A DNA stretch of 64,000 bases from an uncultured Bdellovibrionales bacterium (GTDB lineage: Bacteria; Patescibacteriota; Minisyncoccia; Moranbacterales; UBA1568), in contig CAZIZG010000006.1 in NCBI GenBank assembly GCA_964543815.1, forward strand, positions 3,656 through 67,655, in the 5' to 3' direction. Both the position numbers and the translations under genes were made by a program. Positions 12,707 through 30,500 of the stretch are shown here, in pieces. The notes under the pieces are model-generated. The model was given only the letters and a program-made list of their open reading frames with translations. It was not told where the DNA came from and made no database searches. Numbering within the stretch: the stretch's first letter is position 1; each line of letters opens with the position of its first letter.

Positions 12707-12716
12707 AGTCTTTCAT

Positions 12717-13454
12717 TTAGTCTTTTTTAGTCCGGAAAATAACGCGCTGCTGGAAAATCATAAACAGGGTCGAGAAAAACCAGTACAAGGAGAGGGCCGC
12801 CGGGAAGCTAATGCCGATAAAAAGGGTAATGGCGGGCCCAAGATAAAGCATCTGTTTATTCATGATTGAAGCAAAGTCAGGTTCATCTGATGAATTTTCC
12901 TTTGTTTCAGGTGTTTTAACCTGTCCATCAAAGAGCATCTTGGTTTGATAATATTGTGCAAGCGCTGACAAAATAGCAAAAACGTAATTTGGCTTGGTTA
13001 AATCAATAAAATTAAGGAAAAGGTGCCTCACTGATCCAGGATTATCCACAAAAGAATAGAGATCAGCCGAATTAATGGTTAGGCCAGCCTGTGAAATATT
13101 AATAATAACTCGATAAATAGCAATAAGCACAATCAACTGAACAATTAATGGCAAGCAGCCACTGAAAGGATTTGCTTTATTTTCCTTATACAAAGCCATT
13201 ATTTCCTTTGTCTGCTGCTCCTTATTTTCTTTATGTTTCCTCTGTATTTCTTTAATCTTTGGTTGTAAATCCTGCATTTTTTTCTGGGATTCAATCTGTT
13301 TCTTCGAAAGGGGGATGAAGAGGGTTTTTATAAAAAGGGTAGTCAAAATTATAGCTACTCCAAAGTCATACCCTGGTACCGTGTTATAAAAAAATACTAG
13401 AACGTTATAAATTGGCTGATAGATGGCAGCATGAAAAAAATCGCCCATAACCAC
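12717..13454 (-). CDS. yidC: Membrane protein insertase YidC (short form)
   Basis: 245 aa, polytopic, in the conserved rpmH-rnpA-yidC-jag arrangement. Confidence 0.8.
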   Translation of the reverse strand: MVMGDFFHAAIYQPIYNVLVFFYNTVPGYDFGVAIILTTLFIKTLFIPLSKKQIESQKKMQDLQPKIKEIQRKHKENKEQQTKEIMALYKENKANPFSGCLPLIVQLIVLIAIYRVIINISQAGLTINSADLYSFVDNPGSVRHLFLNFIDLTKPNYVFAILSALAQYYQTKMLFDGQVKTPETKENSSDEPDFASIMNKQMLYLGPAITLFIGISFPAALSLYWFFSTLFMIFQQRVIFRTKKD

Positions 13455-13471
13455 TAAAAAATAAGAAAGAA

Positions 13472-13819
13472 TTAGTTCCTACCTATATATTCTACAATGT
13501 TTTCTACTACAGACGCAAAGAACTGCCGATTCCCCGGAAAAAGTGGCTTTACCGTGAAAAATACTACGTCGTAAGGTTTTTTTAAGATTGCCTGATCCAA
13601 AGAAATTAGACGCCCCATAAGCAGACGACGAACAGCGTTGCGACCAACAGCAGTTCTAAGATGCTTTTTTCCAAAAGAAAAGCCTATTCGAAGGTGACTA
13701 AGGTTATTTTTCACTAAACGGCAGCCAATTGGACCAAAAAAAAGGGGCCTTCCTTGACGAAATACCCTTTCAAAATCAGCTTTTTTCCTTAAACGAAAGC
13801 TCTTCTTAAACATATTCAA
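13472..13819 (-). CDS. rnpA: Ribonuclease P protein component
   Basis: 115 aa basic protein, RLRKKADFERVFRQGR motif, directly downstream of rpmH. Confidence 0.85.
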   Translation of the reverse strand: MNMFKKSFRLRKKADFERVFRQGRPLFFGPIGCRLVKNNLSHLRIGFSFGKKHLRTAVGRNAVRRLLMGRLISLDQAILKKPYDVVFFTVKPLFPGNRQFFASVVENIVEYIGRN

Positions 13820-13846
13820 GGAAATATCCAGGTTAAAATCTGGAAT

Positions 13847-13987
13847 CTAGGCTGTAGTAAGCCTTTTTCTTCCCTGGCGACGTCGGCGAGTAATCACTGC
13901 CTGCCCACCTTTGGTATTCATGCGCTTTAAAAAGCCATGTCGGCGCGATCTTTTTCGGCTCTTTGGTTGGTATGTTTTCTTTGACAT
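13847..13987 (-). CDS. rpmH: 50S ribosomal protein L34 (absent from ORF track, below the 60-aa cutoff)
   Basis: Manual translation of the minus strand gives [46 protein letters not shown], the canonical L34 sequence. Confidence 0.85.
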
Positions 13988-14161
13988 ACGCAATGGATAA
14001 AATTAGTCTTACGAAATGTTTGTCCAGTTTACCAGAAATTGGGAATTAGTCAACAGGGATGCCGCTCTATATGCAAAACACACAAAAAGTCCCTTATCCA
14101 CCGAATATCCACCATTTTATGCTAATTTAGACGTCGCCCCAACAAAAGACCCGTGCTATAA
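13988..14161. promoter_or_regulatory. rpmH/dnaA divergent intergenic region with DnaA-box-like 9-mers and the dnaA promoter
   Basis: TTATCCACC (~14092), ATATCCACC (~14106), TTATCCATT (revcomp at ~13994), TGTTGATAA (= TTATCAACA revcomp, ~14172). -10 TATAAT at ~14156. Confidence 0.6.
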
Positions 14162-15598
14162 TTGCCTTCACTGTTGATAACTTTCCCTACTATGACAAAT
14201 GAGGAGCTTTGGAAAGCTGTTTTGGGACAAATTGAGCTTTCGATTTCTAAAGCGAATTTTGTAACCTGGTTTAAGAATACTAGTATTATTCAAAATGAGA
14301 ATAGTATTGTCACTATTAGTGTACCTAATGGATTTGCGAAGGAATGGCTTGAAAATAAGTATAATCACTATATCCTAAAAGCATTAAGGGGCTTTAATCC
14401 TGACGTACGCGAAATTCGCTGTACGCTTTCTCCTACAAAAATCACCGGAGTCCCCGATCCAATTAGAAATATTGATGCCATCAAAGGACCGGATACTCAA
14501 GCCGGATTTGTTCGAAAAAAGATTATCGAAAAACCCTCTTTTAGCACTACACCTCATGCTGCTCCCGTCTTTCACGAAACAAATCTCAACAGTCGCTATA
14601 CTTTCGAAAATTTCATTGTTGCCGAAAACAACGAATTAGCTCGAGCTGCCTGTTATGCCGTCTCACAAAACCTTGGGATGGCTTATAATCCACTTTTTAT
14701 CTATGGTGGAGTAGGCCTCGGTAAAACACACCTCCTCCAATCCATCGGTAATGAAGTTATACAAAATAATCCAGAAAAACGAATTAAGTACATTACTTCT
14801 GAGCGTTTTACTACTGAATTAGTGGACGCTATAAAAAATCAAAAAATAGACAAATTTAAAGAGTATTATCAGCAGATGGACCTTCTTATTATTGATGATG
14901 TTCAGTTTCTTTCAGGTAGAGAGAAAACTCAAAATGAATTTTTTCATATTTTTAATGCCCTTTATCAAATCAATAAGCAAATTGTCATATCAAGTGACCG
15001 TCCACCAAAGGCTATTCCAACCCTTGAAGATCGCCTCCGTTCGCGGTTCGAGGGAGGTATGATTACCGATATTAGTCGCCCGACCCTTGAAACACGTATA
15101 GCCATTCTTGAGTCAAAGCTTCAGGAAAAAAATTTTTCCCTTGATCAAGCCTCAATTCGTTTTATTGCTGAAAATGCCTCACAAAATATCCGTGAACTCG
15201 AAGGAGCGCTTAATAGAGTGATTGCTTATTCTGAATTTCACAAAATTTCACCATCTCTTGAGAATACTCAAAAAATCCTATTTGAACTCATTGAAAACAA
15301 CAAAAAAACACTCCAAGCAGATGATGTTTTTCGTATCGTAACAGAATTTTATAACGTTCTTCGGGAAGATCTTATCAAAAAGGGCCGCAAGAAAGAGGTT
15401 TCTCATCCTCGCCAAGTTATGATGTATCTCCTTCGTCAAGAACTTTCCCTCCCTTTCTCAACCATTGGAGAACTCCTTGGCGGTAGAGACCATACCACTG
15501 TCCTTCATGCGTTTGAAAAAATAAATTCTAAAAAAGAAACCACCATTCGGCTAAAAGAAGAAATTGAAACCCTCAAAGAGCGTCTTTATTACTCATAA
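14162..15598 (+). CDS. dnaA: Chromosomal replication initiator DnaA
   Basis: 478 aa. AAA+ Walker A GGVGLGKTHLL, box VII, C-terminal HTH domain (DHTTVLHA). Confidence 0.95.
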   Translation: MPSLLITFPTMTNEELWKAVLGQIELSISKANFVTWFKNTSIIQNENSIVTISVPNGFAKEWLENKYNHYILKALRGFNPDVREIRCTLSPTKITGVPDPIRNIDAIKGPDTQAGFVRKKIIEKPSFSTTPHAAPVFHETNLNSRYTFENFIVAENNELARAACYAVSQNLGMAYNPLFIYGGVGLGKTHLLQSIGNEVIQNNPEKRIKYITSERFTTELVDAIKNQKIDKFKEYYQQMDLLIIDDVQFLSGREKTQNEFFHIFNALYQINKQIVISSDRPPKAIPTLEDRLRSRFEGGMITDISRPTLETRIAILESKLQEKNFSLDQASIRFIAENASQNIRELEGALNRVIAYSEFHKISPSLENTQKILFELIENNKKTLQADDVFRIVTEFYNVLREDLIKKGRKKEVSHPRQVMMYLLRQELSLPFSTIGELLGGRDHTTVLHAFEKINSKKETTIRLKEEIETLKERLYYS

Positions 15599-15842
15599 AT
15601 AAGTGGACAACAGTGTATAACAGAGAAAAATTAATGTATAAAAGCTGTATAAAACTTTCCTTACCGTGCATAAAATAGACCTTTTTACAGAAAGTCGCAG
15701 CAAAAAAATCCTCTCCAGGAATTATCTCTAAATTATTTACTGGTCTCTCTGAAGAAATTATCTTATATTCAAGCCATAATATTCACTTATCCAGATGTCC
15801 ACATCCCTAATGATAATAAAGATTTAAATATATTTTATTTTT
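15599..15842. promoter_or_regulatory. Candidate oriC: DnaA boxes plus AT-rich unwinding element between dnaA and dnaN
   Basis: TTATCCAGA and TGTCCACAT at ~15786-15806; TTGTCCACTT (revcomp at ~15603). Very AT-rich stretch 15805-15842. Confidence 0.55.
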
Positions 15843-16991
15843 ATGAAGATTACTTGCACTCAGGAAAATCTCTCAAGAGCCTTAAGTTCCCTTGAAAGGG
15901 TTGTTGGAAAACAAGCAACTCTTCCTATACTAAGTAATTTTCTTTTGGAGACAGAAAAGGGGAGATTAAAAATATCAGCAACAAACTTAGAAATTGGGGT
16001 AATTGTTTCTATTGGGGCAAAGATTGAAAAAGATGGAAAAATAGCAGTTCCAGCAAAAATCCTCAGTAATTTTATTTATAATCTTCCTACAGGTGACATT
16101 ATTGAGTTGGAGGTGATTGATCAACACTTAAGGGTTATTAGTACTAGTTATCAGATTCGAATAAAAGCCCTTGATGGAAAGGATTTTCCTATTATTCCTC
16201 AATTCAAAAAGGAATATCAGTATCTTTTACCAGCGCAACAGGTAAAAGAAGCTCTCTCTCGCCTCTTATTTTGTGTAAGTTTAAATGAAGCTCGATTGGA
16301 ATTAACAGGGGCTTGTGTCTCAATTTCTGCTAATCTCATGAAAATTGCTACTACAGACAGTTTTCGGCTAGCAGAAGAGGTATTAGTGCTTGGGAATCAA
16401 GAAATGGTTCCTGGTCAAAATATTGATGAAATTCAATCGATTATTATACCGAATGGTGTATTACAAGAATTGGTGCGAATTATTCGACCTGAGAGCATTG
16501 AACTGAAAATGGCCCTTGATGAGAACCAGCTTTTTTTTGAGGTTGATGGTGTAGAGGTAATTTCTCGTGTTATTAATGGAAAATACCCTGATTATCAACA
16601 GATTGTTCCAAAGGAATTCTCTTTAGAAGTTATTTTTGAAAAAAGCTTGTTTTTGAGAGCACTTAAAATAGCAGGATCGCTTTCATCATATACTTCTGGA
16701 GAAATAGCGCTGGTGTTTAACACACAAGAAAAGAGTTGTACTTTTCTTTCAAAATCTCAAGAAATTGGTGAGAATAAAACGGTCCTCCCTGTAAAATATG
16801 TACAGGGTGAACAAGTGCTAACGATTCTTTTTAATCCCCGATATATTTTAGAGGGGATTAATGCTCTTCAAGGGGAGAAAATACTCTTTTGTGCAAACTC
16901 TGGAGCAACTCCGGCTGCTCTGCGGATGGTTGATGATGAGGAAAAGAGTATTGATACATACCTCTATTTGATGATGCCTATCCGGAAGTAG
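15843..16991 (+). CDS. dnaN: DNA polymerase III beta sliding clamp
   Basis: 382 aa, three-domain clamp pattern, position after dnaA. Confidence 0.9.
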   Translation: MKITCTQENLSRALSSLERVVGKQATLPILSNFLLETEKGRLKISATNLEIGVIVSIGAKIEKDGKIAVPAKILSNFIYNLPTGDIIELEVIDQHLRVISTSYQIRIKALDGKDFPIIPQFKKEYQYLLPAQQVKEALSRLLFCVSLNEARLELTGACVSISANLMKIATTDSFRLAEEVLVLGNQEMVPGQNIDEIQSIIIPNGVLQELVRIIRPESIELKMALDENQLFFEVDGVEVISRVINGKYPDYQQIVPKEFSLEVIFEKSLFLRALKIAGSLSSYTSGEIALVFNTQEKSCTFLSKSQEIGENKTVLPVKYVQGEQVLTILFNPRYILEGINALQGEKILFCANSGATPAALRMVDDEEKSIDTYLYLMMPIRK

Positions 16992-16992
16992 T

Positions 16993-17295
16993 ATGAAAAA
17001 TCTTAAGGATTTACTTCCTAAAAAACATCTTCATACTCCTCGTCATGGGAGGGAGGGTGGATTTGATGACCAGACTATATTTCATATAGCAAAAAAAGTA
17101 TTGCGGGAAGAATATGGTTTGCGCGGTGTTGAAAATATTATTCCGGTACGATATTTTGAAAAAAAGCTTTATTTATCCTCAAGAAGTTCGCTGTGGGGAA
17201 ATGAAATATGGCTTGAACGGAATCGTTTACAAGAGCAAATGAATGCCTTTCTTGGTCAGCAGGTAATTATTGAGATTAAAATAGAACAGGGTTGA
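16993..17295 (+). CDS. DciA-like (DUF721) protein
   Basis: 100 aa immediately after dnaN. LYLSSRSSLWGNEIWLERNRL resembles the DUF721 core. Confidence 0.5.
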   Translation: MKNLKDLLPKKHLHTPRHGREGGFDDQTIFHIAKKVLREEYGLRGVENIIPVRYFEKKLYLSSRSSLWGNEIWLERNRLQEQMNAFLGQQVIIEIKIEQG

Positions 17296-17305: not shown

Positions 17306-19840
17306 TTAGTAGTTGACTGAAACATCCTTGCTATCAGTGGCCTTATTGCCATTACCATCCCGAATTTCAGCCTCTATTTTGAGGGTAGTGTGATTTTTAC
17401 TCTCAGGAATAGAATAGTTTATTGAATAGGGTTTGTCTCCGGTCGATCCAACTTCATTTCCATCAACTGAGTAGGTAACTTTATCAACCCCATAAGGGGC
17501 ATCGGTGCTAACACTAAGAGTAAGCGTTGAGGAATCAGTGCTTCCTGGGACGGAGAGACTTATTTTTGGCTTGTAGTCACTAAAATCACTTTCTTTACAG
17601 TCGTCTTCTGGGGCCTTAGCTACGACAATACCTTTTTGTTTCTCATACCAGTTTTCAACTCCTTTCTCCCAATTTTTATATTGAGCATCGCGATCTGGCT
17701 TATCAGGGATAGGGCCACGGGGATTTTCCCGGTTTACGTAATGAAGAATATCGTGATCGCTCACAAAATCTTTTTTATCAGTATCTTTATCGCGACAGTA
17801 TTTATTGGCGAGGCAGTACTCATTTTTTTTGCCAGGAATTTTACATACTTTTAAATCTTCTTCCATCTCAAGCTTTCCAGAGAGCATAGGTTTGGTAGTT
17901 TTTCCTTCTCCGTCGCCTATTTCATCATCTGGATTGTATTTTGGAAATTCCTCAATAGGGTAATTCACGAGTGCTTTATCAAGAAAGGCTCGGAAAATAG
18001 GGGCGGCAACATTTACGCCATCGGCTCCCTCTACCATAGCACTGTTGTTATTATTTCCGGCCCAGACACCAACAGCAAGTGAGGGAGTATATCCTACGGT
18101 CCAGCCATCACGGAATTCATTGGTGGTACCGGTTTTGGCGACGACTTGACGGCTGTCAAAACGAAGGGGATTGTTTTCACCAAACACCCAGGATCGGTTC
18201 TCATTATTTGAGAGAATAGCATCAAGCATAGCGACATATTTTTCTTCTACTACGCGTTCTCCTGATGAACTTTTGAATTCTTCAAGAACCTCTCCCTTGG
18301 CGCTCTCGATACGAAGAATAGCGGTTTTCTCATGTTTTATGCCGCCGGTAGCAAGTGTTCCGTAGGCTGAAACATGGTCAAGAAGTTTTACTTCGCCACC
18401 TCCTAAAACAAGAGAAAGGCCAACTCGGGAAGGATCATTAAGACCACTAATACCAAGGCTTTTGGCGAGTTTAACGGCATCATTCACACCAACAAGGTAG
18501 AGCGTCTTGACGGCTGGTACGTTGAGTGACCCTCCAAGGGCCTTGGCCATAGAGAGGGGGCCATGAAACTTACCATCATAGTTGTTGGGTTGGTAGCTTT
18601 TTCCTTCGGCCGTCTCAAATTGGGTTTCTACATCGTAAAGCATGGTTTCTGGGAGATACCCCTTGGTAAAAGCAGTGAGGTAGACATAGGGCTTAAAAGA
18701 AGATCCTGGCTGACGGTCACGGATAGCTACATTAACATTGCCGTCGATGGTCGTGTCAAAGTAGTCTCGAGAGCCGACCATAGAGAGGATTTGACCAGTT
18801 TTTGGGTCAATAGCTACGAGAGCGGCGTTTGAAGCCTTCCACTTCTTATTTTTCTCAGCCTGATCACGAACAGCCTGCTCCGCAATTTGTTGTTTGTCCC
18901 AATCAAGGGTTGTTATTACTTTAAGACCGCCCTGTTCTACAGCCTGATCGCCATATTTTTGTTGGAGGTAGTCTTTGATATACATGACGAAATGAGGGGC
19001 GGCAATGATGTCTTTTTGAGGGACAATTTTATCAAGAGTGAGCGTTTCTATGGCAGCAGCAGCCTGTTCCTCGGTAATATAGCCAAGTCGAGCCATAGTG
19101 CGAAGAGTAAAATTCTTTCGCCCAACAAGCGCATCGCGATGGGAGCCATAGGGGGAGTAGTAGGCAGTAGCTTGAGGGAGGGAAGCGATAAGAGCTGCTT
19201 CATCGAGGGAAAGTTCTCGAGCTGGCTTTCCAAAGAAGGTTTGCGCTGCCGCCTCAATCCCATAGGCATTGGAGCCATAGGGGATTTCGTTTAGGTACAT
19301 GGCTAAAATTTCATCTTTGGAAAATTTTGTTTCCATTTCCAGTGACAAAATTACCTCTTTGACCTTTCGGGTGAGGGTTTTTTCGTTTGAAAGAAGGGAA
19401 TTTTTAACAAACTGTTGGGTGATAGTTGATCCACCCTGCGACTTGTCCAGGGTAATAATATCCTTGAGGATGGATCGGAGGATAGAGGTGAGCTTAATTC
19501 CGTGATGAGTATAAAAATCTTGATCCTCTAGGCTGATGGTGGCATATTTAACCACATCTGGCATATCAGAAAACTCGATAACAGTACGCTTTTCTTCCCC
19601 GTGGACCTCGTAGAGGAGGTGTTCGCCTGTCCGATCAAATATTTTTGTAGATTCCACGATAACGCGGTTATTGACATCGCCTGGGTTGGGGAGATCTTTG
19701 GCGATATAGGCGAAGATGGAGCCTACCACCACAAAGCTAACAAGAGAGAGTATTAATCCGGTGCGGAAAAGAAAGCGCCAGACTTTACTTTTTGGCTTGT
19801 CTGAAACATAAAGAGAGCGGCGTTTTCTGAAGAAAGTCAT
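17306..19840 (-). CDS. Class A penicillin-binding protein (transglycosylase plus transpeptidase) with C-terminal Ig-like extension
   Basis: N-terminal TM; GT51 motifs (EDQDFYTHHG, GGSTITQQ); transpeptidase SSFKP, SLN, KTGTT. ~100-aa Thr/Ser-rich beta-rich tail. Confidence 0.85.
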   Translation of the reverse strand: MTFFRKRRSLYVSDKPKSKVWRFLFRTGLILSLVSFVVVGSIFAYIAKDLPNPGDVNNRVIVESTKIFDRTGEHLLYEVHGEEKRTVIEFSDMPDVVKYATISLEDQDFYTHHGIKLTSILRSILKDIITLDKSQGGSTITQQFVKNSLLSNEKTLTRKVKEVILSLEMETKFSKDEILAMYLNEIPYGSNAYGIEAAAQTFFGKPARELSLDEAALIASLPQATAYYSPYGSHRDALVGRKNFTLRTMARLGYITEEQAAAAIETLTLDKIVPQKDIIAAPHFVMYIKDYLQQKYGDQAVEQGGLKVITTLDWDKQQIAEQAVRDQAEKNKKWKASNAALVAIDPKTGQILSMVGSRDYFDTTIDGNVNVAIRDRQPGSSFKPYVYLTAFTKGYLPETMLYDVETQFETAEGKSYQPNNYDGKFHGPLSMAKALGGSLNVPAVKTLYLVGVNDAVKLAKSLGISGLNDPSRVGLSLVLGGGEVKLLDHVSAYGTLATGGIKHEKTAILRIESAKGEVLEEFKSSSGERVVEEKYVAMLDAILSNNENRSWVFGENNPLRFDSRQVVAKTGTTNEFRDGWTVGYTPSLAVGVWAGNNNNSAMVEGADGVNVAAPIFRAFLDKALVNYPIEEFPKYNPDDEIGDGEGKTTKPMLSGKLEMEEDLKVCKIPGKKNEYCLANKYCRDKDTDKKDFVSDHDILHYVNRENPRGPIPDKPDRDAQYKNWEKGVENWYEKQKGIVVAKAPEDDCKESDFSDYKPKISLSVPGSTDSSTLTLSVSTDAPYGVDKVTYSVDGNEVGSTGDKPYSINYSIPESKNHTTLKIEAEIRDGNGNKATDSKDVSVNY

Positions 19841-19930: not shown

Positions 19931-20881
19931 CTAGAGAGCAGCTCTTTTTTCCAGTGAGTCGATAAAGTTTTTACAAAACATTCTTCGATTTTCTCCTGTT
20001 ATTGCTCCCTTAAATCCAATTTGATCGTTAATTTCAAAGATATACGGAGTTCCATCCGAATCTATGCCAAAATCTATGGAGTAAAATGGGGATGAGTACA
20101 TTGAATCGATAAGGGGGTGAACTTGACTGACGATGTTTTGGAGTGCCAATGGGGCGGCTGTATAGGGAAATTCAATGCTTAATCCGCCCTGACTAACATT
20201 CGCCCGGAGCTCACCTGGCTTTGGGGATCTTGCCTGGAGGAGAATGGGCGCGCCATTAATAATAATGACGCGAAGATCGTGATGGCTAGGAATGATGTTA
20301 GGCACTCCGCCGCTCGTGTCGATAAATTTTTGAAGAATAAATTTTTTCCCTGGAATCACGAGGTCTGGCAGTAAATTTTTGGCTTCAGTAATGATAACAC
20401 CCTTTCCGCCAAAGCTATCCACGGGTTTGAAAACGACCATTTCTTTTGGCTGAAATAACGAGAGCGATGTGGTGAAGTCTTGTCGTGAAGCGATAGGAAA
20501 TGTTTTGGGCATGTAACGCTTGAGAAGCGCATAGGTCTGATATTTGTTGTTGGCCAACTTTTTAAAAGCAGAAGAATTAAGGGTTTTGGCATCAATATCA
20601 GGGGTTGGAAAGTCTTTCCGAGGACTTCGATCAAAAATGGCATTAAAAATAATTTTTTCCCGGTGAAGCACAAATTCTTCGCCTGTAAAGAAGAGGACGT
20701 TTTCAAATTCCATCCCGCCATGATGTAGGGTGGGCTTCACGCCTAAATACATATCGAGCCCTCTTGATCTTCCCTCGCGAAAGAGGGACCAGTAGATTTC
20801 CCGGCGATCCGGTAGATGGGCGTATGGGTCGGCAGCTACTTCTTTTTTGGTGAAATAGATGAGGATTTTCTTACGTGGCAT
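19931..20881 (-). CDS. ATP-grasp family amidoligase (paralog 3)
   Basis: 316 aa. Central ATP-grasp fold signatures (VVFKPVDSFGGKGV, IFEINDQIGF). 46-nt overlap with the upstream paralog. Confidence 0.6.
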   Translation of the reverse strand: MPRKKILIYFTKKEVAADPYAHLPDRREIYWSLFREGRSRGLDMYLGVKPTLHHGGMEFENVLFFTGEEFVLHREKIIFNAIFDRSPRKDFPTPDIDAKTLNSSAFKKLANNKYQTYALLKRYMPKTFPIASRQDFTTSLSLFQPKEMVVFKPVDSFGGKGVIITEAKNLLPDLVIPGKKFILQKFIDTSGGVPNIIPSHHDLRVIIINGAPILLQARSPKPGELRANVSQGGLSIEFPYTAAPLALQNIVSQVHPLIDSMYSSPFYSIDFGIDSDGTPYIFEINDQIGFKGAITGENRRMFCKNFIDSLEKRAAL

Positions 20882-21774
20882 AGGTAATTGAAGAGAGAGA
20901 CTATTTCAGTGGATTGTGGGTTCTCTGGAGTAAATCCTGGAGAGCGGTTGACCTCGAAGAGATACATTTTTTTGTTTTTTGAAGAAACAACGATGTCGAC
21001 TCCCGCGACTTCAATATGTAAAACTTTGGCCGCTTTAAGCGCGAGTGTTTTGAGCGGCAAGGCAATTTTTTTGGGATCAGAATATACTTCTGTTCCGCCG
21101 AGACTGGCGTTATTTCTAAAATCTTCAGTGTTCTGCCGGGTTCGCTCCTCGAGAGCGCCAACGACGGTGCCGGTGATAAAGATACGAAAATCAGATTGAT
21201 TGGGAATAAATTCTTGCAAGATGAGCTTTTCGCGATCACCGTGATCGAGAATGGCATAGAGCTCCTCACGAGTTCGTACTAGAAAGACTCCCTTACCCTG
21301 ACGGGAGAGTATTTTTTTGGCCACGATGGGGAGGCTGAGAAACTCTTCAGCCCGGATAAGTTTTTCTTTGTTGTATGATGGAGAAAAATATGTTTTTGGA
21401 ACAGGGAGTCCACTTTCGGCAAGAACGAACATTTGTGAGAGCTTTCCATTGATTGATCCAAAGGCGTGATGGGTATCTACGAAAGGAATGTTTCTTTTCT
21501 GAAGGTAGCGAGCGATAAGGGTAGCGATGGGTTGATACTTTCCCGCTCGTTTGATGTAGACGCTGTCAAAGTCTGTCAATGACTTTTTTTCACAAAAGAT
21601 GCGAGTATGGTCTTTATCAATAAAAAATTCCATGGACTGAAAATTTCCCAGTTCATAAGAGAACGAATGTTCCCCCATCATTTCAAGAAGGGGATTGATA
21701 CTTTTGAGATCAGCGACCATCTTTTTTGTTGGACGATCTGTAAGAATCAGCATGGAATTATTTATTGACATCAA
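20836..21774 (-). CDS. RimK-like ATP-grasp ligase (paralog 2)
   Basis: 312 aa. RimK-type motifs (PIVAKKILSRQGKGVFLV, LFEVNRSPGF). 17-nt overlap with the upstream gene. Confidence 0.7.
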   Translation of the reverse strand: MMSINNSMLILTDRPTKKMVADLKSINPLLEMMGEHSFSYELGNFQSMEFFIDKDHTRIFCEKKSLTDFDSVYIKRAGKYQPIATLIARYLQKRNIPFVDTHHAFGSINGKLSQMFVLAESGLPVPKTYFSPSYNKEKLIRAEEFLSLPIVAKKILSRQGKGVFLVRTREELYAILDHGDREKLILQEFIPNQSDFRIFITGTVVGALEERTRQNTEDFRNNASLGGTEVYSDPKKIALPLKTLALKAAKVLHIEVAGVDIVVSSKNKKMYLFEVNRSPGFTPENPQSTEIVSLFNYLCHVRKSSSISPKKK

Positions 21775-23152
21775 TAAGAAACTTGCTTAAGTTTTTTCGG
21801 CCAATAATGACTGGATATTTTAGATGGGAACGGTCAATAACCGATACCTTGGCAGGAAACGAAAGAGTATCAAGTGTTAAATCCACACGGAGAATTGGTC
21901 GATAGCTGGTGCCATGAGATGATTTTACCGGAACGGCATCAGTGAGGTTTGGTATCTCGAGGAGTAGTGCCTCTCGTTCCATTTTCGTCATTTCATTGAG
22001 GACATCTCGCCCAGCAATTTTATCCTCAAACATCTGAAGAATGGAGCCAAAACCGAGCTCTTGAGCAAGTTTGGTATCGATAGCTGTAGAGTCTGCCCCA
22101 GTATCGATTTTTGCTTCGACTTCAATTTCTTTGCCATTGATACCAATAATCTTTACTTTTTCGATGCTGCCGATGACGCGCTTTCCGGAGAGCTCCTCAA
22201 TTTCTTCTTCGATTTCGCCACCAAAGAGATTGCGACCGACGCGGATACCGCGCTCAGTTGTTTTGATTTTCAAACCGGAAACGCGTTTGAGTCGTCCTTT
22301 GAGGCCGGCCAGATTAGCGAGCTGGATAGAAAGTCCGGGACGGGCATTGAGTTCGAGAATGACCGGACCACGATCTCGATCAATGGCAATGTCGGCGCCG
22401 AGAAAACCAAGGCCAGAAAGCCGCTGGGCCTCTACGGACATGCGGAGGATTTCTTTCCAATACGGAATTTTGATACCGGAGAGGACGAGACGGGTGCTGG
22501 GCACATACTCAATCAACTGGCCTTTACCGATAATGGCTGTTGTTGTGGTGCCGGTAGCGAGGTCGATACCAACGCCGATGGCCCCTTGCTGGAGGTTGGC
22601 CTTACCGTCGGAGGCCTTGGTAGGCAAACGAAGCATGGCCATGACAGGAACGTGATTGAAAACAATAACCCGGATATCAGGGATGCCCTTGAAGCTGTAC
22701 GGCTTGAAGAGCTTCAGAAGCTTGAGTCGTTCTTCAAAAAAGGCAATATCAGGAGTATTAGCCAGGGAGAACGATCCGTCGATGATGTTTCGGATATGCG
22801 ACTTGAGGTCATTGATGGTGATAACGGAACCATCAGCTTTGACCCAAGCATCCGGACGTCCTTTTTTGCGAGCATAGACGACAACGATACCTTCGCCACC
22901 AAAACCACGATTGGGCTTGAGAGCAAAGCTGTCGGGCAAAGTGTTCCAATCGAAATGATCAAGTTCTTCATGGGTCTTGATTTTGGCAATGAGTGCTGAT
23001 ATCCCGAGATTATTTTTTTTCAAGATACGTTTACAGAGGAGCTTGCTATCAGCAATCTCCATGCTCCGCTTGCGGTTATTCGGGCGGATGTACTCCAAAT
23101 TTCTGGCATTCATACCAAGGAGCAACCCACTTTTTTTCAAGAAATCAAACAT
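21758..23152 (-). CDS. ATP-grasp (alpha-L-glutamate-ligase-like / ATPgrasp_ST-style) fused to C-terminal retropepsin-like (DUF785/Zn_protease-like) domain
   Basis: N-terminus LGMNARNLEYIRPNNRK...; ATP-grasp core (FALKPNRGFGGEGIVVV, ILELNARPGL); C-terminal ~130 aa with IDTGADSTAID aspartyl-protease-like motif. Confidence 0.6.
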   Translation of the reverse strand: MFDFLKKSGLLLGMNARNLEYIRPNNRKRSMEIADSKLLCKRILKKNNLGISALIAKIKTHEELDHFDWNTLPDSFALKPNRGFGGEGIVVVYARKKGRPDAWVKADGSVITINDLKSHIRNIIDGSFSLANTPDIAFFEERLKLLKLFKPYSFKGIPDIRVIVFNHVPVMAMLRLPTKASDGKANLQQGAIGVGIDLATGTTTTAIIGKGQLIEYVPSTRLVLSGIKIPYWKEILRMSVEAQRLSGLGFLGADIAIDRDRGPVILELNARPGLSIQLANLAGLKGRLKRVSGLKIKTTERGIRVGRNLFGGEIEEEIEELSGKRVIGSIEKVKIIGINGKEIEVEAKIDTGADSTAIDTKLAQELGFGSILQMFEDKIAGRDVLNEMTKMEREALLLEIPNLTDAVPVKSSHGTSYRPILRVDLTLDTLSFPAKVSVIDRSHLKYPVIIGRKNLSKFLIDVNK

Positions 23153-23187
23153 AGGAGACGCTACTCAATGAAAATAATCGATATCGA

Positions 23188-23847
23188 TTATTGAAGATGG
23201 CGGATAATTTTTCGAAAGCGAAGGAGCTCGGTGAGACGAAGGCCCGTCCACTTACCAAGGGAGAAATTGATAACAAAAGTAAAAAGAATAATCCATGGAT
23301 AGTGGAGCACGAGGGCAATGAGACTGTTCCAACTGACGAGATAGTAACCAACCACAGAAATGACCAGTGTTTCGATAGCTAAGATGAGGGCAATACGACT
23401 TCCCTTTTCAATTTGAGTGGCAATAAATTTTTCCGCGAGCGTAATCATGATGAGGAGCGGAAAAATGGAGACGGAGGCAAGTCCAGTGCGACGATACATG
23501 CCACCGATGAGGAGTACTCCTAAGATGGCAAGCGAGACGATGGAAACCGTCATGGCGACGCGTGGCAAATAGAGGAGGCGAAATTTTTTCATGAGGATGC
23601 GCGAGAGCGTTCCTACCACGATGACACTCACGAAAATGGCGATGCCGTATTTGATACCATTGGGATCAAAAGCAAGGAGAGCAAAGGTGATAATAGAAGG
23701 AGTGTAGATACCAAAGGCCTTGACGCCTACCACTTGCCGAAAAAAAGCAACCATGGTTACCACAATAGGGAGCATGAGAAGGAGGGCGACCGTCGGAAGG
23801 GGTACGCCTTGTTCAACGATGAAGTTTATAAAAGGATGGTACTGCAT
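23188..23847 (-). CDS. 7-TM membrane protein (7TM module of transglutaminase-associated type)
   Basis: 219 aa, seven predicted TM helices. Directly upstream of and co-oriented with the ATP-grasp cassette. Confidence 0.45.
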   Translation of the reverse strand: MQYHPFINFIVEQGVPLPTVALLLMLPIVVTMVAFFRQVVGVKAFGIYTPSIITFALLAFDPNGIKYGIAIFVSVIVVGTLSRILMKKFRLLYLPRVAMTVSIVSLAILGVLLIGGMYRRTGLASVSIFPLLIMITLAEKFIATQIEKGSRIALILAIETLVISVVGYYLVSWNSLIALVLHYPWIILFTFVINFSLGKWTGLRLTELLRFRKIIRHLQ

Positions 23848-23888: not shown

Positions 23889-24380
23889 CTAAGAATTCTT
23901 GATGTGTTCCATACGTCGACGACTCTGGTGGCAGAGAGCGAGGGCGAGAGCATCAGCGGTATCGTCTGGTTGCGGGATGGCGGGAAGTTTGAGAAGAGTC
24001 TGTACCATTAATTGTACCTGGGTTTTGTCTGCTCTCCCATAATTTGTCAACGCCTGCTTCACTTCAAGTGGCGTGTAACCGAAAATACTAACACAGAAAT
24101 TCTCTAAAGTCAAGAGAATAACTCCGCGTGCCTGAGCGACGGAAATGATGGTTTTTTGGTTCTTAAAAAAGAACAATTCTTCGACTGCGGCCTCGGTTGG
24201 CTCATACTGCTCGATGATTATTTTGAGATCACGAGCAATTTCTGACAGGCGTTTTTCGGGCGCCAGATCTTTATCGGTACTGATGTGTCCATAGGCAAGA
24301 GCGGTGGCTTTACCACCCTGTATTTCGATGATTCCCCAGCCTACTGTCGCGGTGCCAGGATCTATTCCGAGAATCTTCAT
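23889..24380 (-). CDS. ruvC: Holliday junction resolvase RuvC
   Basis: MKILGIDPGTATVGWGII N-terminus, 163 aa. Confidence 0.9.
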   Translation of the reverse strand: MKILGIDPGTATVGWGIIEIQGGKATALAYGHISTDKDLAPEKRLSEIARDLKIIIEQYEPTEAAVEELFFFKNQKTIISVAQARGVILLTLENFCVSIFGYTPLEVKQALTNYGRADKTQVQLMVQTLLKLPAIPQPDDTADALALALCHQSRRRMEHIKNS

Positions 24381-27584: not shown

Positions 27585-30500
27585 TTAGATTTCGGTGACT
27601 CGCTCAATTTCTTCAAAAGTTGTTTTGCCCTCGAGAGCCGCCAGCACACCATCCTGAAGGATAGTGAGCATACCTTTTTTAACGGCCGCGGCTTCAATTT
27701 CGTGAGCGAGGGATCCAGAAGCAATAAGCTCTTTAATCTCCTGATCAACCGTGAGAGCCTCAGAGAGGATTATCTGGCCATTGTAGCCGGTATTGCTGCA
27801 GGTTGGGCATCCCTTACCCCTGTGGAGTTTGAGTGTTTGAGGAATTTTAACCCCGGCTGCTTTAGGTATGGTAGCGAGAACCCTATCAAGAGTGGCTCTT
27901 TCCTGCTCGTTTGGTTCGGTTTCCGTGCTGCAGTCCGGACAGAGACGACGCACTAGACGTTGCGCAATAAAGAGGTTACTGGCATCAGCGAGGTCATCAC
28001 CGGAGACGCCCATTTTGATCAGGCGCTGTATGGTACCGGCGGCGGAGTTAGTGTGAAGGGTTGAGAGAACGAGGTGACCGGTAGCAGCGGCCTGAACGGC
28101 GATTTGAGCTGTTTCATCGTCGCGAATTTCACCAATCATGAGAATATCGGGGTTCTGGCGAAGAAGGGATCGGAGCGCCGTTGAAAAGGTATACCCCTCT
28201 TCTTCGTTAACCTGAGTTTGGAGTAAGCCCGCCATTTGATATTCAATCGGGTCTTCTACGGTAATAATTTTTATTTCCGGTCGATTAACGCGAGCCAGGA
28301 TACTATAGAGGGTAGTAGTTTTCCCGGATCCAGTTGGACCAGTATTAAGAATCATCCCGTTTGGTTTTTGGATAGCTTCAAGTATTCGGGTGAGGTTTTG
28401 TTCGCGAATATTAAGGGTATCAAGATCGAGTTTGGTGGCAGATTGATTGAGGAGACGAAGTACAACTGTTTCGCCAAAACCTCCCAAGATTATAGAGAGA
28501 CGAATATCGATGTCCTTTTCTGTTGTTCCGGGGAGAGGGCTTTCAAAATGAATAGCAAAACGTCCATCAGTAATACCGGCCCGCTCGCCGCTCTTCAGGC
28601 CAGCGAGTAATTTAATTTCACTTAAGAATCCTGGGTATTCATTAATAGGAAAGCGAGCGGCTGTTTTCAGGATACCATCGAGACGAAAGCGCACCTCGTA
28701 ACTATCATTGTTTGGTTCAATGTGAATATCGCCAGCCTTAAGGAGGGTGGCGGCAGCAAAAAGAAGTGGCAAGCGGATTTTGGAGTCGCTTTTCAAAGCG
28801 TAGGCACCAAAGCCATCCAAAGAGTCGAGATTTTTTTTGGTTTCGTCAAAGACAGTATTTGAAATAAAGGCACCTCGAGAAAGCTCATTGGGCATCAGTT
28901 CAGCATAGATATTTTGGAGGAGGTCGCCCTGATCAGTGACACGGAGTACTTCATCTAGGGTAGTAATGCCTCGGAGAGCTTTCAGGATGCCATCTTGTGT
29001 CATGGTGACCATACCACTCTCAAGGGCAGCTCGCAGGATATCTTGCTCGGTTCCCATTTCATTTACTATTTTTTCAATTTCGGGAGTCATTGAGAAAACC
29101 TCATAGATACCAACGCGACCTTTGTAGCCTGAAAAGTTACAGGCGACACAGCCGACCGCTTTCCAGAGCACCTCTACTTTGTTAGGAACGGAAATTTTCG
29201 CTTTAGGCGAAACAATGGTAATGAATTTAATGATTGAATCAAGGGTCTCTTTGGCGGGGGTATAGGAGACTTTGCACTGTGGGCAAAGCGTACGAACAAG
29301 CCGCTGGGCGATAAGAATTTTGATAGCCGAGGTGATGAGCGATGGCCGTACCCCGAGTTCCAGGAGGCGCGGTATGGAGGCGGGAGCACTGTTAGAGTGA
29401 AGGGTAGAAAGAACAAGGTGGCCAGTAAGGGCGGCATTGATAGCGATATCAGCCGTTTCATCGTCGCGAATTTCCCCCACGAGTATAACGTCAGGATCCT
29501 GACGTACCACGGCTCGGAGGGCAGTAGCAAAGGTGTACTTTTTATCTTTGGACACTTCAGTTTGGACAATGCCGGGAAGCGAATATTCAATTGGGTCTTC
29601 CACAGTGATAATTTTTGTGCCAGGGCGGTTGATATGGTGAAGGAGCGTATAAAGAGTAGTGGTTTTCCCGGACCCAGTTGGACCGGTATTAAGGATAAGG
29701 CCATTGGGTTTTTCGATAGCCGCCATCACCATTTCCGAAACAAGTCCCTGGAGGCCAAGGCTATCGATGTCGTTGGAGATGCTGTCACCCGAGAGGAGAC
29801 GCATGTTGATACTCTCAGCATACTTTCCCGGGATAATATTAACCCGAATATCGACTCGCTTTCCGTCTATTTCAACAAAAAAGTGGCCATCCTGGGCTTC
29901 TTTGCGAATGTTTAGACGCATTTTCCCAAGCATTTTGATACGGGAAAGCATGAGAGCGTACACTTCTACAGGGAGATTGCCAATGTCCTGAAGGATACCA
30001 TCAATACGGTAGCGCAGTCTCACTTGGTGTTCTTCTGGTTCGAGATGAATGTCGCTGGTATCAAGTTTTTTTGCTCCGGTCAAGATAACCTCCATGGCCT
30101 TGGTGGTATTGGAAGATTGTCCCTTGTGAAGACTAATGAGTTCTTTAAAGTTAGCCTCGAATTTTTCAAGGTCAGTTCCGCTAAGTGAAACGCGAACTAA
30201 ATCAAGATTATCAAGGAGGGTGCGTTTGTGATTGTATTGTTCCCAGGCTTTCTCCAGGGAGGCCTCAGAAACGACATAAAGTTCACTCTTGGCACTGTGT
30301 TCTTCTGTGAACTTGTTTATAAATGCAGTAACAGACTCGTTCTCTGGATTCGTGGTAGCAAAAAGATAGAGAGTATCTTTTTTATGAAAGATAGTGAGAC
30401 GAAGTCTTTCGGAGTCCTCGCGTGTCATAAGGAAGACTGTCTCGGCATCTACTGGAAACACATTTAAATCAATGTAGGGAAGACTAAATTTTTGACCGAG

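What the first reader, a model, noticed from the sequence alone, without database searches (positions are those of the whole stretch)
19931..23847. Translationally coupled triple ATP-grasp amidoligase cassette with fused retropepsin-like domain and a 7TM partner
Seen in sequence: three co-oriented genes (316, 312 and 464 aa) each carry ATP-grasp signatures. Consecutive genes overlap by 46 and 17 nt, which suggests translational coupling. The 464-aa protein starts LGMNARNLEYIRPNN (sugar-transfer-associated / alpha-L-glutamate-ligase-like ATP-grasp style). It ends in a ~130-aa segment with IDTGADSTAID, an aspartyl-protease DTG-type motif characteristic of retropepsin-like DUF785 ('Zn_protease') domains. 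Directly upstream is a 219-aa protein with seven TM helices. Established knowledge: comparative genomics (the Iyer/Aravind amidoligase analysis) described neighbourhoods of RimK-like ATP-grasp, a retropepsin-like peptidase and a 7TM module, often fused to an inactive transglutaminase. These were predicted to be peptide-ligation/protein-tagging systems of unknown substrate. Inference: here the peptidase is fused to the ligase, the transglutaminase is absent, and two extra ATP-grasp paralogs are present. Three ligases in tandem within a streamlined genome suggest sequential or polymerising peptide (e.g. poly-Glu/Asp) addition to a membrane or surface target. No experimentally characterised equivalent is known to me.
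Basis: partly seen in the sequence, partly recalled or inferred. Interest (0 to 1): 0.75.

Follow-up and report, generated by a model that had tools for sequence, protein, structure and literature searches.

The report
Candidate-phylum Rlo-like peptide ligase–protease cassette
A Moranbacteria (candidate phyla radiation) genome carries a membrane-linked operon related to the Pseudomonas rlo and rim peptide ligase/protease systems, in which a conserved core is followed by a slot of extra ligase genes that changes even between closely related species.

Summary

- **219-aa protein:** the 7TM module of RloB, without the transglutaminase-like ectodomain.
- **464-aa protein ("FUS"):** an RloC-type ATP-grasp ligase (PF14397 / TIGR02291). 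A disordered acidic linker joins it to a RimB/RloA-type retropepsin domain. Sequence and predicted fold both support this.
- **Two downstream genes:** a RimK-type ligase and a GshB/RimK-like ligase. Both keep the catalytic ATP-grasp residues.

**Corrections**
- Characterised relatives now exist: rloABC in *P. aeruginosa* and RimB/RimBK, both published in 2025.
- The 17-nt overlap comes from a TTG start. Homologues point to an ATG 4 nt after the stop. The 46-nt overlap is real.

**New here**
- In 63 related species the 7TM–FUS pair is fixed between ruvC and the PBP1A gene.
- The genes after FUS form a hypervariable slot of 0–4 genes, with 46 different compositions. They include four or more ATP-grasp clades, MATCAP-like peptidases, glycosyltransferases, YdjC and Mur-type ligases.
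- The same 7TM–FUS–RimK-like–third-ligase order recurs at 30–42% identity in unrelated genome contexts.
- Elsewhere, FUS is fused to MATCAP, YdjC or another ATP-grasp domain.

**Most likely function:** a membrane-anchored system that builds and trims an acidic peptide whose make-up differs by lineage.

**Verdict:** new variant of a known kind; moderate interest.

The parts
23188..23847 (-). 7TM membrane protein, equivalent to the C-terminal 7TM module of RloB. It has no ectodomain, an N-out/C-in topology is predicted, and the C-terminal tail is basic.
   Evidence: PF14402 at 92.2 bits (cut-off 25), covering profile positions 57-247 of 248. NCBIfam RloB NF052267 positions 313-507 of 508, E 3.2e-22. 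Seven hydrophobic segments and 6 K/R residues in the last 31. It lies directly upstream of the fusion gene in every locus that includes the upstream DNA.
21758..23152 (-). Fusion protein (FUS, 464 aa): RloC-type ATP-grasp ligase, acidic linker, retropepsin-like peptidase.
   Evidence: PF14397 6e-69; TIGR02291 4.7e-83; PF05618 1.7e-9. It is 58-95% identical in 80 species loci. AlphaFold2 model with mean pLDDT 78.9.
22277..23119 (-). ATP-grasp ligase domain of FUS (residues 12-292).
   Evidence: Foldseek top hits are ArgX, LysX, RimK, PsnB and Ddl. K79, D159, R161, R175, N186, D254, E267 and N269 are invariant across relatives at 36-54% identity. It is 40% identical to a standalone ligase in a canonical rloABC-type operon.
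22175..22228 (-). Acidic linker LFGGEIEEEIEELSGKRV (residues 309-326).
   Evidence: F310, G311, G312, E313-E316 and E319 are invariant in 63 Moranbacteria sequences. Residues 311-326 have pLDDT below 50. The motif occurs in most relatives that carry the retropepsin domain (some, e.g. P0127 and P0181, lack it); standalone ligases of about 315 aa end before or within this region and lack it.
21761..22174 (-). Retropepsin-like (RimB/RloA-type) aspartic peptidase domain (residues 327-464). The catalytic D350-T351-G352 is encoded at 22097-22105.
   Evidence: PF05618 at 38.2 bits (cut-off 27). PDB 9g58 (RloA) E 5.6e-4 by sequence. Domain model pLDDT 84.3. Foldseek hits: 2pma (DUF785), HIV-1 protease, 9g58/9g59 (RloA/RloA2), Ddi1 and APRc, E 1e-5 to 1e-4. 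In 63 Moranbacteria sequences D350, G352, R418, R441 and G451 are invariant and K348 nearly so; across relatives at 36-54% identity G451 is invariant and D350, G352, R418 and R441 are at 90% or more.
20836..21753 (-). RimK-type ATP-grasp ligase (305 aa from the ATG at 21753; the longest ORF starts at the TTG at 21774). Occupant of the variable slot, cluster c1.
   Evidence: PF08443 3.2e-27; TIGR00768 4.9e-32 (111 bits, below the 143 cut-off); E. coli RimK 5zct E 1.2e-15. Start inferred. Cluster c1 has 30 members, 29 from related loci plus the window's own protein.
19931..20881 (-). Third ATP-grasp ligase (316 aa), GshB/RimK-like. Occupant of the variable slot, cluster c3. Its start overlaps the previous gene by 46 nt.
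   Evidence: PF02955 6.8e-9, PF14397 2.6e-8, PF08443 9.3e-7; E. coli GshB 1gsa E 0.002. K152, D202-R204, R218, N228, G232-G233, D270, E283 and N285 are invariant in 28 relatives. Relatives at 32-33% identity occupy the same position in L091 and L092.
23889..24380 (-). ruvC, the conserved upstream flank (41 nt before the 7TM gene).
   Evidence: Pfam RuvC. YebC-RuvC-7TM-FUS order is seen in Moranbacteria loci and in L085; in L087 a galT-like gene lies between ruvC and the 7TM gene.
17306..19840 (-). Class A penicillin-binding protein (PBP1A), the conserved downstream boundary of the variable slot.
   Evidence: Pfam Transgly plus Transpeptidase. Present downstream of the slot in 63 related loci, and inverted in L006, L016 and L017.

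Best explanation
This is the Moranbacteria form of the Rlo/Rim family of peptide-tail 'writer/eraser' systems.

**Shown**
- A 7TM protein homologous to the membrane module of RloB is encoded next to a cytoplasmic RloC-type ATP-grasp ligase.
- That ligase is fused, through a disordered acidic linker, to a RimB/RloA-type retropepsin domain that keeps the DTG and GR motifs.
- Two further ATP-grasp genes follow. Both retain the invariant residues of their families.
- The order 7TM, fusion, RimK-like, third ligase is conserved in distant lineages and in different genome contexts.
- In the window's own lineage the genes after the fusion form a swap-prone slot.

**Inferred mechanism**
1. At the cytoplasmic face of the membrane, the RloC-type domain uses ATP to add amino acids to a carboxylate acceptor. 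Glutamate is the most likely residue, by analogy with RimK and with the poly-Glu specificity of RimB and RloA.
2. The slot ligases add further or different residues, so the product differs between lineages.
3. The tethered retropepsin, acting as a dimer, cuts the acidic chain to set its length or release it, as RimB does for RimK.
4. The 7TM partner docks the enzymes at the membrane and may pass the product outward. In other lineages its N-terminal ectodomain (inactive transglutaminase, PKD repeats, or a Pro/Thr-rich extension) would meet the product there.

The acceptor and the exact residues are unknown.
For: **Family and fold**
- Pfam and NCBIfam assignments.
- Retropepsin fold of the C-terminal domain and a sequence match to RloA, PDB 9g58.
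- K348, R418 and R441 sit at offsets -2, +68 and +91 from the catalytic Asp. The poly-Glu-binding K46, R114 and R137 of RloA sit at -2, +66 and +89 (paper). R418 and R441 also align with Arg residues of 9g58.
- ATP-grasp catalytic residues are invariant.

**Link to the canonical system**
- A 40%-identical standalone ligase lies in a RimB-like / transglutaminase-7TM / ATPgrasp_ST operon.

**Published genetics and biochemistry**
- RloA cuts runs of at least 8 Glu.
- Deleting rloB or rloC rescues the triple rloA mutant.
- RimB trims poly-Glu and stimulates RimK, and an active RimB-RimK hybrid exists.

**Gene linkage**
- The 7TM gene and FUS are adjacent in every locus that includes the upstream DNA and in relatives at 37-56% identity.
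- The four-gene order recurs at 30-42% identity next to rplJ/rplL.
- Rosetta-stone fusions join FUS to MATCAP, YdjC or ATP-grasp_3.
- 60 of 63 loci carry at least one accessory ATP-grasp gene right after FUS.

**Location**
- None of the three ligases has a TM segment by hydropathy scan; I see no signal-peptide-like N-terminus.
Against: - No product, acceptor or activity has been measured for any protein of this clade, or for RloC itself.
- FUS scores 278.8 bits against TIGR02291, below its 314.2 cut-off. The retropepsin domain is far below the RloA and RimB equivalog cut-offs, so specificity may differ.
- In Pseudomonas the protease is periplasmic. Here it is cytoplasmic, so the logic of the system may not carry over.
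- Glycosyltransferases (GT4, GT2, GT8) and YdjC in the slot of other lineages point to a sugar-containing acceptor in at least some variants.
- No candidate protein with an acidic C-terminus was found in the window.
- The role of the 7TM protein is pure inference. It has no relative with a solved structure.
Confidence: 0.55

Rival explanations
1. Glycan or cell-wall decoration. The ligases amidate sugar carboxylates (uronic or muramic acids, or a lipid-linked precursor) with amino acids or short peptides. The 7TM protein handles the lipid-linked or exported intermediate. The product is a peptide-decorated envelope polymer.
For: - GT4 (cluster of 11 slot proteins), GT2, GT8 and YdjC-like deacetylase genes sit in the same slot in related species.
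- FUS is fused to YdjC in P0121.
- The slot also holds Mur-ligase-like and cyanophycin-synthetase-like enzymes.
- The PBP1A gene is adjacent in 63 loci, and Wzy_C genes lie near L091 and L092.
- The Pfam family is named 'sugar-transfer associated'.
- The Pseudomonas rlo mutants have envelope phenotypes.
Against: - The window's own slot has no sugar-handling gene.
- The retropepsin and MATCAP partners act on peptides.
- PBP1A is inverted in some loci, so it is not always co-transcribed.
- This rival overlaps the main explanation. It differs mainly in the acceptor.
Confidence: 0.25
2. Ribosomal protein S6 modification, as in RimK/RimB. The RimK-like gene polyglutamylates RpsF and the retropepsin trims the tail.
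For: The 312-aa protein's best matches with solved structures are E. coli and Pseudomonas RimK. The retropepsin belongs to the RimB-like family. Like RimB, the protease is cytoplasmic.
Against: - The RimK-like protein scores 62 bits against the S6-ligase equivalog model (cut-off 331) and 111 bits against TIGR00768 (cut-off 143).
- It belongs to a dispensable slot cluster, c1, with 29 members among the 80 related loci. The closest species, L007 and L008, lack it.
- The protease is fused to the RloC-type ligase, not to the RimK-type one.
- An obligate 7TM partner has no role in S6 modification.
Confidence: 0.07
3. Synthesis of a soluble metabolite or storage polymer (glutathione-like peptide, cyanophycin-like or poly-Glu polymer) for cytoplasmic use, with the 7TM gene only a neighbour.
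For: The third ligase resembles GshB. Slot cluster c2 matches the cyanophycin synthetase G domain (2.6e-56), and L018 carries an M-domain-like Mur ligase.
Against: - The 7TM gene is next to FUS in every lineage examined, in several genome contexts.
- All equivalog cut-offs for GshB and CphA are missed by wide margins.
- Extreme slot turnover would be unusual for core metabolism.
Confidence: 0.08
4. An anti-phage defence or other conflict island that happens to contain ligases.
For: Gene content is hypervariable between conserved flanks.
Against: - None of the four proteins hits PADLOC.
- I saw no nuclease, toxin or mobile-element genes among the slot or neighbouring proteins scanned.
- The core pair is near-universal and highly conserved in the lineage.
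Confidence: 0.03

Closest known systems
rloABC operon of Pseudomonas aeruginosa (Lormand et al., mBio 2025, PMC12239564)
   Same: It has the same three modules: an RloC-type ATP-grasp ligase (PF14397/TIGR02291), the RloB-type 7TM module (PF14402) and a RimB/RloA-type retropepsin (PF05618). The ligase gene lies directly after the 7TM gene. A canonical operon whose ligase is 40% identical is shown in L093.
   Different: - Here the protease is fused to the C-terminus of the ligase and has no signal peptide, so it is cytoplasmic rather than periplasmic.
- The 7TM protein lacks the inactive transglutaminase ectodomain.
- One to three extra ligase genes follow.
- The host is a CPR bacterium. The paper found 96% of RloB hits in Proteobacteria.
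RimK / RimB and the RimBK hybrid (Little et al., JBC 2025, PMC11957791)
   Same: A cytoplasmic retropepsin is paired with, and in RimBK fused to, an ATP-grasp alpha-L-glutamate ligase. The protease cuts poly-Glu and tunes the ligase. A RimK-type gene is also present in the window.
   Different: - RimBK has the protease at the N-terminus of a RimK-clade ligase. Here it sits at the C-terminus of an RloC-clade ligase.
- The Rim system has no 7TM partner.
- The window's RimK-like protein fails the S6-ligase equivalog cut-off.
Iyer, Abhiman, Burroughs and Aravind 2009 (Mol Biosyst 5:1636): predicted ATP-grasp / 7TM-transglutaminase / peptidase neighbourhoods
   Same: It is the same predicted system class. 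This rests on my recollection of the paper, which the library does not hold.
   Different: As far as I can tell, that analysis did not describe the CPR fusion architecture, the ectodomain-free 7TM protein or the hypervariable ligase slot. I could not check this.
Tubulin C-terminal tail code (TTL/TTLL ligases with MATCAP, vasohibin and CCP peptidases)
   Same: This is a functional analogy. ATP-grasp ligases that extend acidic tails are combined with peptidases that trim them. MATCAP-family domains are fused to FUS, or encoded in the slot, in relatives.
   Different: The bacterial system has a different acceptor, which is unknown. The window itself has no MATCAP gene.
Cyanophycin synthetase CphA1
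   Same: The slot enzymes of related species match its G (ATP-grasp) and M (Mur-ligase) domains. It is a non-ribosomal poly-amino-acid synthetase.
   Different: These are separate small proteins far below the CphA cut-offs. The window's two slot ligases belong to other clades.

Membership tests
RloC / TIGR02291 alpha-L-glutamate ligase-like (Pfam ATPgrasp_ST PF14397) | Match to PF14397 above the gathering score | tested here: met
   232.8 bits against a cut-off of 31.4, covering profile positions 2-277 of 278.
RloC / TIGR02291 alpha-L-glutamate ligase-like (Pfam ATPgrasp_ST PF14397) | Score above the NCBIfam TIGR02291 trusted cut-off | tested here: not met
   278.8 bits against a cut-off of 314.2 (E 4.7e-83). 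It is a divergent member of the family, not an equivalog.
RloC / TIGR02291 alpha-L-glutamate ligase-like (Pfam ATPgrasp_ST PF14397) | Encoded next to a 7TM_transglut (RloB-type) gene | tested here: met
   The 7TM gene ends 35 nt upstream. The adjacency holds in every related locus that includes the upstream DNA and in distant loci.
RloC / TIGR02291 alpha-L-glutamate ligase-like (Pfam ATPgrasp_ST PF14397) | ATP-dependent amino-acid ligase activity | not testable with these tools
   Only conservation of ATP-grasp residues can be shown: K79, R161, N186, D254, E267 and N269 are invariant.
RimB/RloA retropepsin-like peptidases (PF05618, clan AA) | PF05618 match above the gathering score, with the catalytic D-T/S-G motif | tested here: met
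   38.2 bits against a cut-off of 27. D350-T351-G352 sits in the sequence AKIDTGA. D350 and G352 are conserved in at least 90% of diverse relatives.
RimB/RloA retropepsin-like peptidases (PF05618, clan AA) | Retropepsin fold | tested here: met
   The domain model (pLDDT 84.3) hits 2pma (DUF785), HIV-1 protease, RloA 9g58, RloA2 9g59, Ddi1 and APRc at probability 1.00 and TM-score about 0.45-0.5.
RimB/RloA retropepsin-like peptidases (PF05618, clan AA) | Basic residues that bind poly-Glu (RloA K46, R114, R137) | tested here: inconclusive
   K348, R418 and R441 sit at matching offsets from the catalytic Asp. R418 and R441 align with Arg residues in 9g58. No structural superposition or assay was done.
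RloA (secreted subgroup) | N-terminal signal peptide, periplasmic location | tested here: not met
   The domain is at the C-terminus of a cytoplasmic ligase with no TM segment (hydropathy scan). NCBIfam RloA1-3 scores of 28-39 bits fall far below the cut-offs of 210-280.
RloB (inactive transglutaminase + 7TM) | 7TM_transglut module | tested here: met
   PF14402 at 92.2 bits against a cut-off of 25. Seven hydrophobic segments.
RloB (inactive transglutaminase + 7TM) | N-terminal inactive transglutaminase ectodomain | tested here: not met
   The protein is only 219 aa. It matches positions 313-507 of 508 of NF052267, at 78.9 bits against a cut-off of 900. Relatives carry PKD repeats or a Pro/Thr-rich extension instead.
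RimK (ribosomal protein S6 L-glutamate ligase) | Equivalog-level match (NF007764) or TIGR00768 subfamily cut-off | tested here: not met
   For the 312-aa protein: 62.4 bits against 331, and 111.4 bits against 143.4. Only the Pfam RimK domain is met (95.8 against 21).
RimBK hybrid | RimB domain at the N-terminus of a RimK-clade ligase | tested here: not met
   The order is reversed and the ligase is of the RloC clade.
Glutathione synthetase GshB | Equivalog-level match (TIGR01380 / NF003573) | tested here: not met
   For the 316-aa protein: 30.7 bits against 299, and 38.7 bits against 272. It matches only the domain-level PF02955 (35.9 against 23).

The most novel reading that the evidence does not exclude
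The slot after the conserved 7TM-ligase/protease core acts as a combinatorial 'peptide code' locus. Each CPR lineage assembles a different set of ATP-grasp ligases, sometimes with Mur-type ligases, glycosyltransferases and MATCAP trimmers. Together they would write a lineage-specific non-ribosomal peptide or glycopeptide onto an envelope component. This would work like serotype loci, under diversifying selection from phages or from host-cell recognition in these episymbionts. If so, the unknown product of the Pseudomonas RloBC system would belong to a much broader and older class of envelope modification.
Probability: 0.15. Interest if true: 0.8.

Novelty: new variant of a known kind. Interest (0 to 1): 0.55.

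Why it matters
**An open biochemical question.** The product of the RloB/RloC system is unknown, although the operon affects antibiotic tolerance, biofilm formation and cell shape in *P. aeruginosa*.

**A simpler test system.** The CPR variant puts the ligase and the protease in one cytoplasmic polypeptide and strips the 7TM partner to its membrane core. That makes a simpler system to reconstitute. Its fusions to MATCAP, YdjC and further ATP-grasp domains show which activities belong together.

**Evolutionary reach.** The system extends well beyond Proteobacteria. More than 560 candidate stretches from the species-representative genome collection encode a relative of the fusion protein.

**A variable envelope trait.** These reduced genomes keep a locus whose ligase content changes even between species about 85% identical in the flanking proteins. 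This suggests a variable envelope-associated trait in organisms whose surface biology is almost unknown.

Tried and rejected
- **Whole-protein fold search.** Foldseek on the full-length model returned only ATP-grasp hits. I modelled the C-terminal domain alone and searched again.
- **afdb50 fold library.** Not available, so I could not get a structural match to UniProt RloC entries. I used the gene context of a 40%-identical standalone ligase instead.
- **Iyer et al. 2009.** The paper could not be read. Statements about it rest on memory.
- **Literature search on Pfam names and accessions.** It found nothing on this architecture.
- **Substrate search in the window.** I looked for a protein with an acidic C-terminus or a poly-Glu run. 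There was no candidate.
- **Anti-phage defence reading.** Checked against PADLOC, with no hits.
- **7TM protein against solved structures.** Nothing.
- **Promoter and terminator scan of the region.** Counts were no higher than in shuffled sequence, so it gives no information on operon boundaries.
- **Base composition.** The two slot genes have slightly lower GC (0.42-0.44) than the core genes (0.47). The difference is too small to argue for recent transfer.
- **dN/dS.** I considered it, but the available orthologues are too divergent (66-69% amino-acid identity), so synonymous sites would be saturated.

Full report
**1. What is there**

Four co-oriented ORFs lie on the minus strand:

| Coordinates | Length | Note |
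|---|---|---|
| 23847..23188 | 219 aa | 7TM protein |
| 23152..21758 | 464 aa | called FUS here |
| 21774..20836 | 312 aa | longest ORF, TTG start |
| 20881..19931 | 316 aa | third ligase |

- ruvC ends 41 nt upstream of the first gene. A class A PBP gene (19840..17306) starts 90 nt downstream of the last.
- The contig comes from a Candidatus Moranbacteria genome (Patescibacteria/CPR).
- The locus lies about 4 kb from dnaN and dnaA. The GC skew changes sign near 16 kb.

**2. Family assignments**

The 219-aa protein:
- It matches Pfam 7TM_transglut (E 4.7e-26) and only the last ~195 positions of the NCBIfam RloB model.
- It has seven hydrophobic segments and a K/R-rich C-terminal tail, which predicts an N-out, C-in topology.
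- It has no ectodomain.

FUS:
- Residues 17-292 match ATPgrasp_ST (6e-69) and TIGR02291 'alpha-L-glutamate ligase-like' (4.7e-83; 278.8 bits, just under the 314.2 cut-off).
- Residues 327-463 match PF05618, now named RimB-like (38.2 bits, cut-off 27).
- Weak matches to RloA3, RloA2, RloA1 and RimB also appear.
- By sequence, its only relative with a solved structure is RloA of *P. fluorescens*, PDB 9g58.

Structure models:
- The full-length AlphaFold2 model has mean pLDDT 78.9, with a disordered stretch at residues 311-326. Foldseek matches it to ArgX, LysX, RimK, PsnB and Ddl.
- The C-terminal domain modelled alone has pLDDT 84.3. It hits DUF785 (2pma), HIV-1 protease, RloA and RloA2, Ddi1 and APRc.

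Conserved residues of the peptidase domain:
- In 63 Moranbacteria sequences D350, G352, G451, R418 and R441 are invariant, and K348 and T351 are nearly so. Across relatives at 36-54% identity G451 is invariant and D350, G352, R418 and R441 are conserved in at least 90%.
- The three basic residues sit at the offsets from the catalytic Asp that RloA uses to bind poly-Glu. This is suggestive only; I did not superpose structures.

The two downstream ligases:
- The 312-aa protein is RimK-type: PF08443 3.2e-27 and E. coli RimK 1.2e-15. It falls below the S6-ligase equivalog cut-off and the TIGR00768 cut-off.
- The 316-aa protein is a divergent GshB/RimK-like ATP-grasp. Its family keeps the ATP-, Mg- and phosphate-binding residues invariant.
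- None of the three ligases has a TM segment in the hydropathy scan, and I see no signal-peptide-like N-terminus.

**3. Gene junctions**

- Gene callers on three of four identical contigs start the RimK-like gene at the ATG at 21753, 4 nt after the FUS stop.
- Homologues begin M[MIL]L[IV]L, which matches that ATG. The 17-nt overlap is therefore probably an artefact.
- The 46-nt overlap of the third ligase is supported. P19 and Y30 are nearly invariant in its family, and I see no other in-frame start codon upstream of residue 19 in the sequence.
- An overlap at this junction recurs in homologous loci: 16-46 nt by longest-ORF starts, and 4 and 8 nt as called by gene callers in L092 and L091.
- Translational coupling is plausible but not shown.

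**4. Conservation and the variable slot**

Distribution of FUS:
Of these, 563 encode a relative of FUS.
- The best 80 loci are 53-95% identical to the window's FUS.

Backbone:
- In those loci the order is RuvB, bPH, YebC, RuvC, 7TM, FUS, slot, PBP1A, then a ~100-aa ORF and DnaN on the other strand.

Slot content:
- The slot holds 0-4 genes, almost all co-oriented.
- Clustering and profile searches give these classes:
  - a divergent ATP-grasp clade, c0 (38 proteins);
  - RimK-type, c1 (30, including the window's 312-aa protein);
  - cyanophycin-synthetase G-domain-like, c2 (26; TIGR02068 2.6e-56);
  - the third-ligase type, c3 (11, including the window's 316-aa protein);
  - GT4 glycosyltransferases (11);
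  - MATCAP/DUF1704 peptidases (9);
  - YdjC (6);
  - longer RimK forms;
  - Mur-ligase-like proteins;
  - GT2 and GT8 glycosyltransferases.
- Two ~620-aa HExxH proteins with no Pfam hit are distant MATCAP relatives (hhalign probability 96.5%).
- Of 63 loci with both boundaries, 60 have at least one accessory ATP-grasp gene: 27 have one, 25 have two and 8 have three.
- There are 46 different compositions. The window's pair (c1 then c3) occurs alone in four loci and within larger slots in a few more.

Turnover:
- L007 and L008 have FUS at 86-87% and PBP1A at 85% identity to the window. They carry a single c2 ligase instead of the window's pair.
- L010 has FUS at 79% identity. It carries the same two classes at only 35-36% identity.

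**5. The module outside this lineage**

| Locus | Arrangement |
|---|---|
| L085 | YebC, RuvC, [PKD + 7TM, 516 aa], [FUS + MATCAP, 800 aa], ATP-grasp, ATP-grasp, MATCAP, ATP-grasp |
| L087 | 7TM, then [FUS + ATP-grasp_3, 926 aa], between ruvC and ruvA/ruvB |
| L089, L090 | 7TM, then FUS |
| L091, L092 | 7TM (with signal peptide and a Pro/Thr-rich extension), FUS (426-432 aa, DTG kept), RimK-like, third-ligase-like, unknown ~190-aa protein; next to rplJ/rplL |
| L093 | RimB-like, transglutaminase-7TM, ATPgrasp_ST (canonical rloABC type; ligase 40% identical to FUS residues 1-292) |

- L091 and L092 repeat the window's four-gene order at 30-42% identity in a different genome context.
- The exhaustive search of cluster representatives found 434 clusters at E ≤ 1e-30.
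- Many relatives are ~790-aa proteins. Those I scanned are FUS-MATCAP fusions. Others are fused to YdjC or to a second ATP-grasp domain.
- These fusions link the slot activities to the core.

**6. What is already known**

- **RloA, RloB and RloC (PMC12239564).** RloA proteases are secreted retropepsins that cut runs of at least 8 Glu. Loss of all three RloA proteases causes hypo-osmotic, antibiotic, biofilm and shape defects. Deleting rloB or rloC suppresses these defects. The product of RloB and RloC is unknown.
- **RimB and RimBK (PMC11957791).** RimB trims poly-Glu from S6 and stimulates RimK. A RimB-RimK hybrid, with the protease at the N-terminus, is active.
[quoted passage not shown] Placing it in the PAO1 rlo operon is my own reading of the locus numbering.

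**7. Most likely mechanism (inference)**

1. The RloC-type domain ligates amino acids, probably Glu, onto a carboxylate acceptor at the inner face of the membrane.
2. The slot ligases extend or diversify the chain.
3. The tethered retropepsin, as a dimer, trims or releases it.
4. The 7TM protein anchors the enzymes and possibly exports the product.

The acidic linker GGEIEEEIEE accompanies the protease domain in most relatives that carry it, and is predicted to be disordered. It could be a pseudo-substrate, an autoprocessing site, or a docking element for the basic tail of the 7TM protein. This is speculation.

The main rival differs in the acceptor: a sugar carboxylate or cell-wall precursor. 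It is supported by the glycosyltransferases and YdjC in other slots and by the PBP1A neighbour.

I rate three other readings as unlikely:
- ribosomal protein S6 modification;
- synthesis of a soluble metabolite;
- anti-phage defence.

**8. Verdict**

- The locus is a new variant of a known kind: Rlo/Rim-type systems, predicted in 2009 and partly characterised in 2025.
- Three features make it a variant: the reversed ligase-protease fusion, the ectodomain-free 7TM protein, and above all the hypervariable ligase slot. I found no paper describing any of these.

Noticed in passing
window 12233-17295: The window spans the probable replication origin. dnaA (14162-15598, +) and dnaN (15843-16991, +) face a block of minus-strand genes (RNase P protein, YidC and an R3H/Jag protein in the matching contig). 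The GC skew changes sign near 14-16 kb.
   Followed up: partly
window 22175-22228 (FUS residues 309-326): The invariant acidic linker LFGGEIEEEIEELSGK sits between the ligase and the protease. It is disordered in the model and occurs in most relatives that carry the retropepsin domain. Its composition resembles the Glu-rich substrates of RimB and RloA. The 7TM protein ends in a conserved basic helix (GLR..E..RFRK.I).
   Followed up: partly
L006:10481-12370 and L045:6733-8595: Two proteins of about 620-630 aa with an HExxH motif have no Pfam or NCBIfam hit. They align with the MATCAP/DUF1704 cluster at hhalign probability 96.5%, so they may be an undescribed long branch of that peptidase family.
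   Followed up: partly
L091:8009-8584 and L092:7964-8530: A conserved protein of about 190 aa and unknown function follows the third ligase in both distant loci (only a weak DUF6138 hit, E 0.0017). It may be a further component, or the acceptor.
   Followed up: no
record titles of L008, L011, L030, L061, L071 and others: Many contigs with Moranbacteria-type synteny and 60-86% identical proteins are labelled 'uncultured Bdellovibrionales', 'Micavibrio', 'Fimivivens' or 'Bathyarchaeia archaeon' in their public records. These are probably mislabelled or misbinned MAGs.
   Followed up: no
P0131 / L085:3474-5876: One public source names the 800-aa ligase-retropepsin-MATCAP fusion 'ketopantoate hydroxymethyltransferase'. 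This looks like a misannotation.
   Followed up: no
window 27585-30611 (-): A 1008-aa protein has two T2SSE-type ATPase hits (type II/IV secretion or pilus ATPase family). That is unusually long for this family.
   Followed up: no
L087: In another lineage the 7TM-FUS cassette sits inside the yebC-ruvC ... ruvA-ruvB cluster, together with a galT-like gene and a DUF3541 gene. The link between this cassette and the ruv genes across CPR lineages is unexplained.
   Followed up: no
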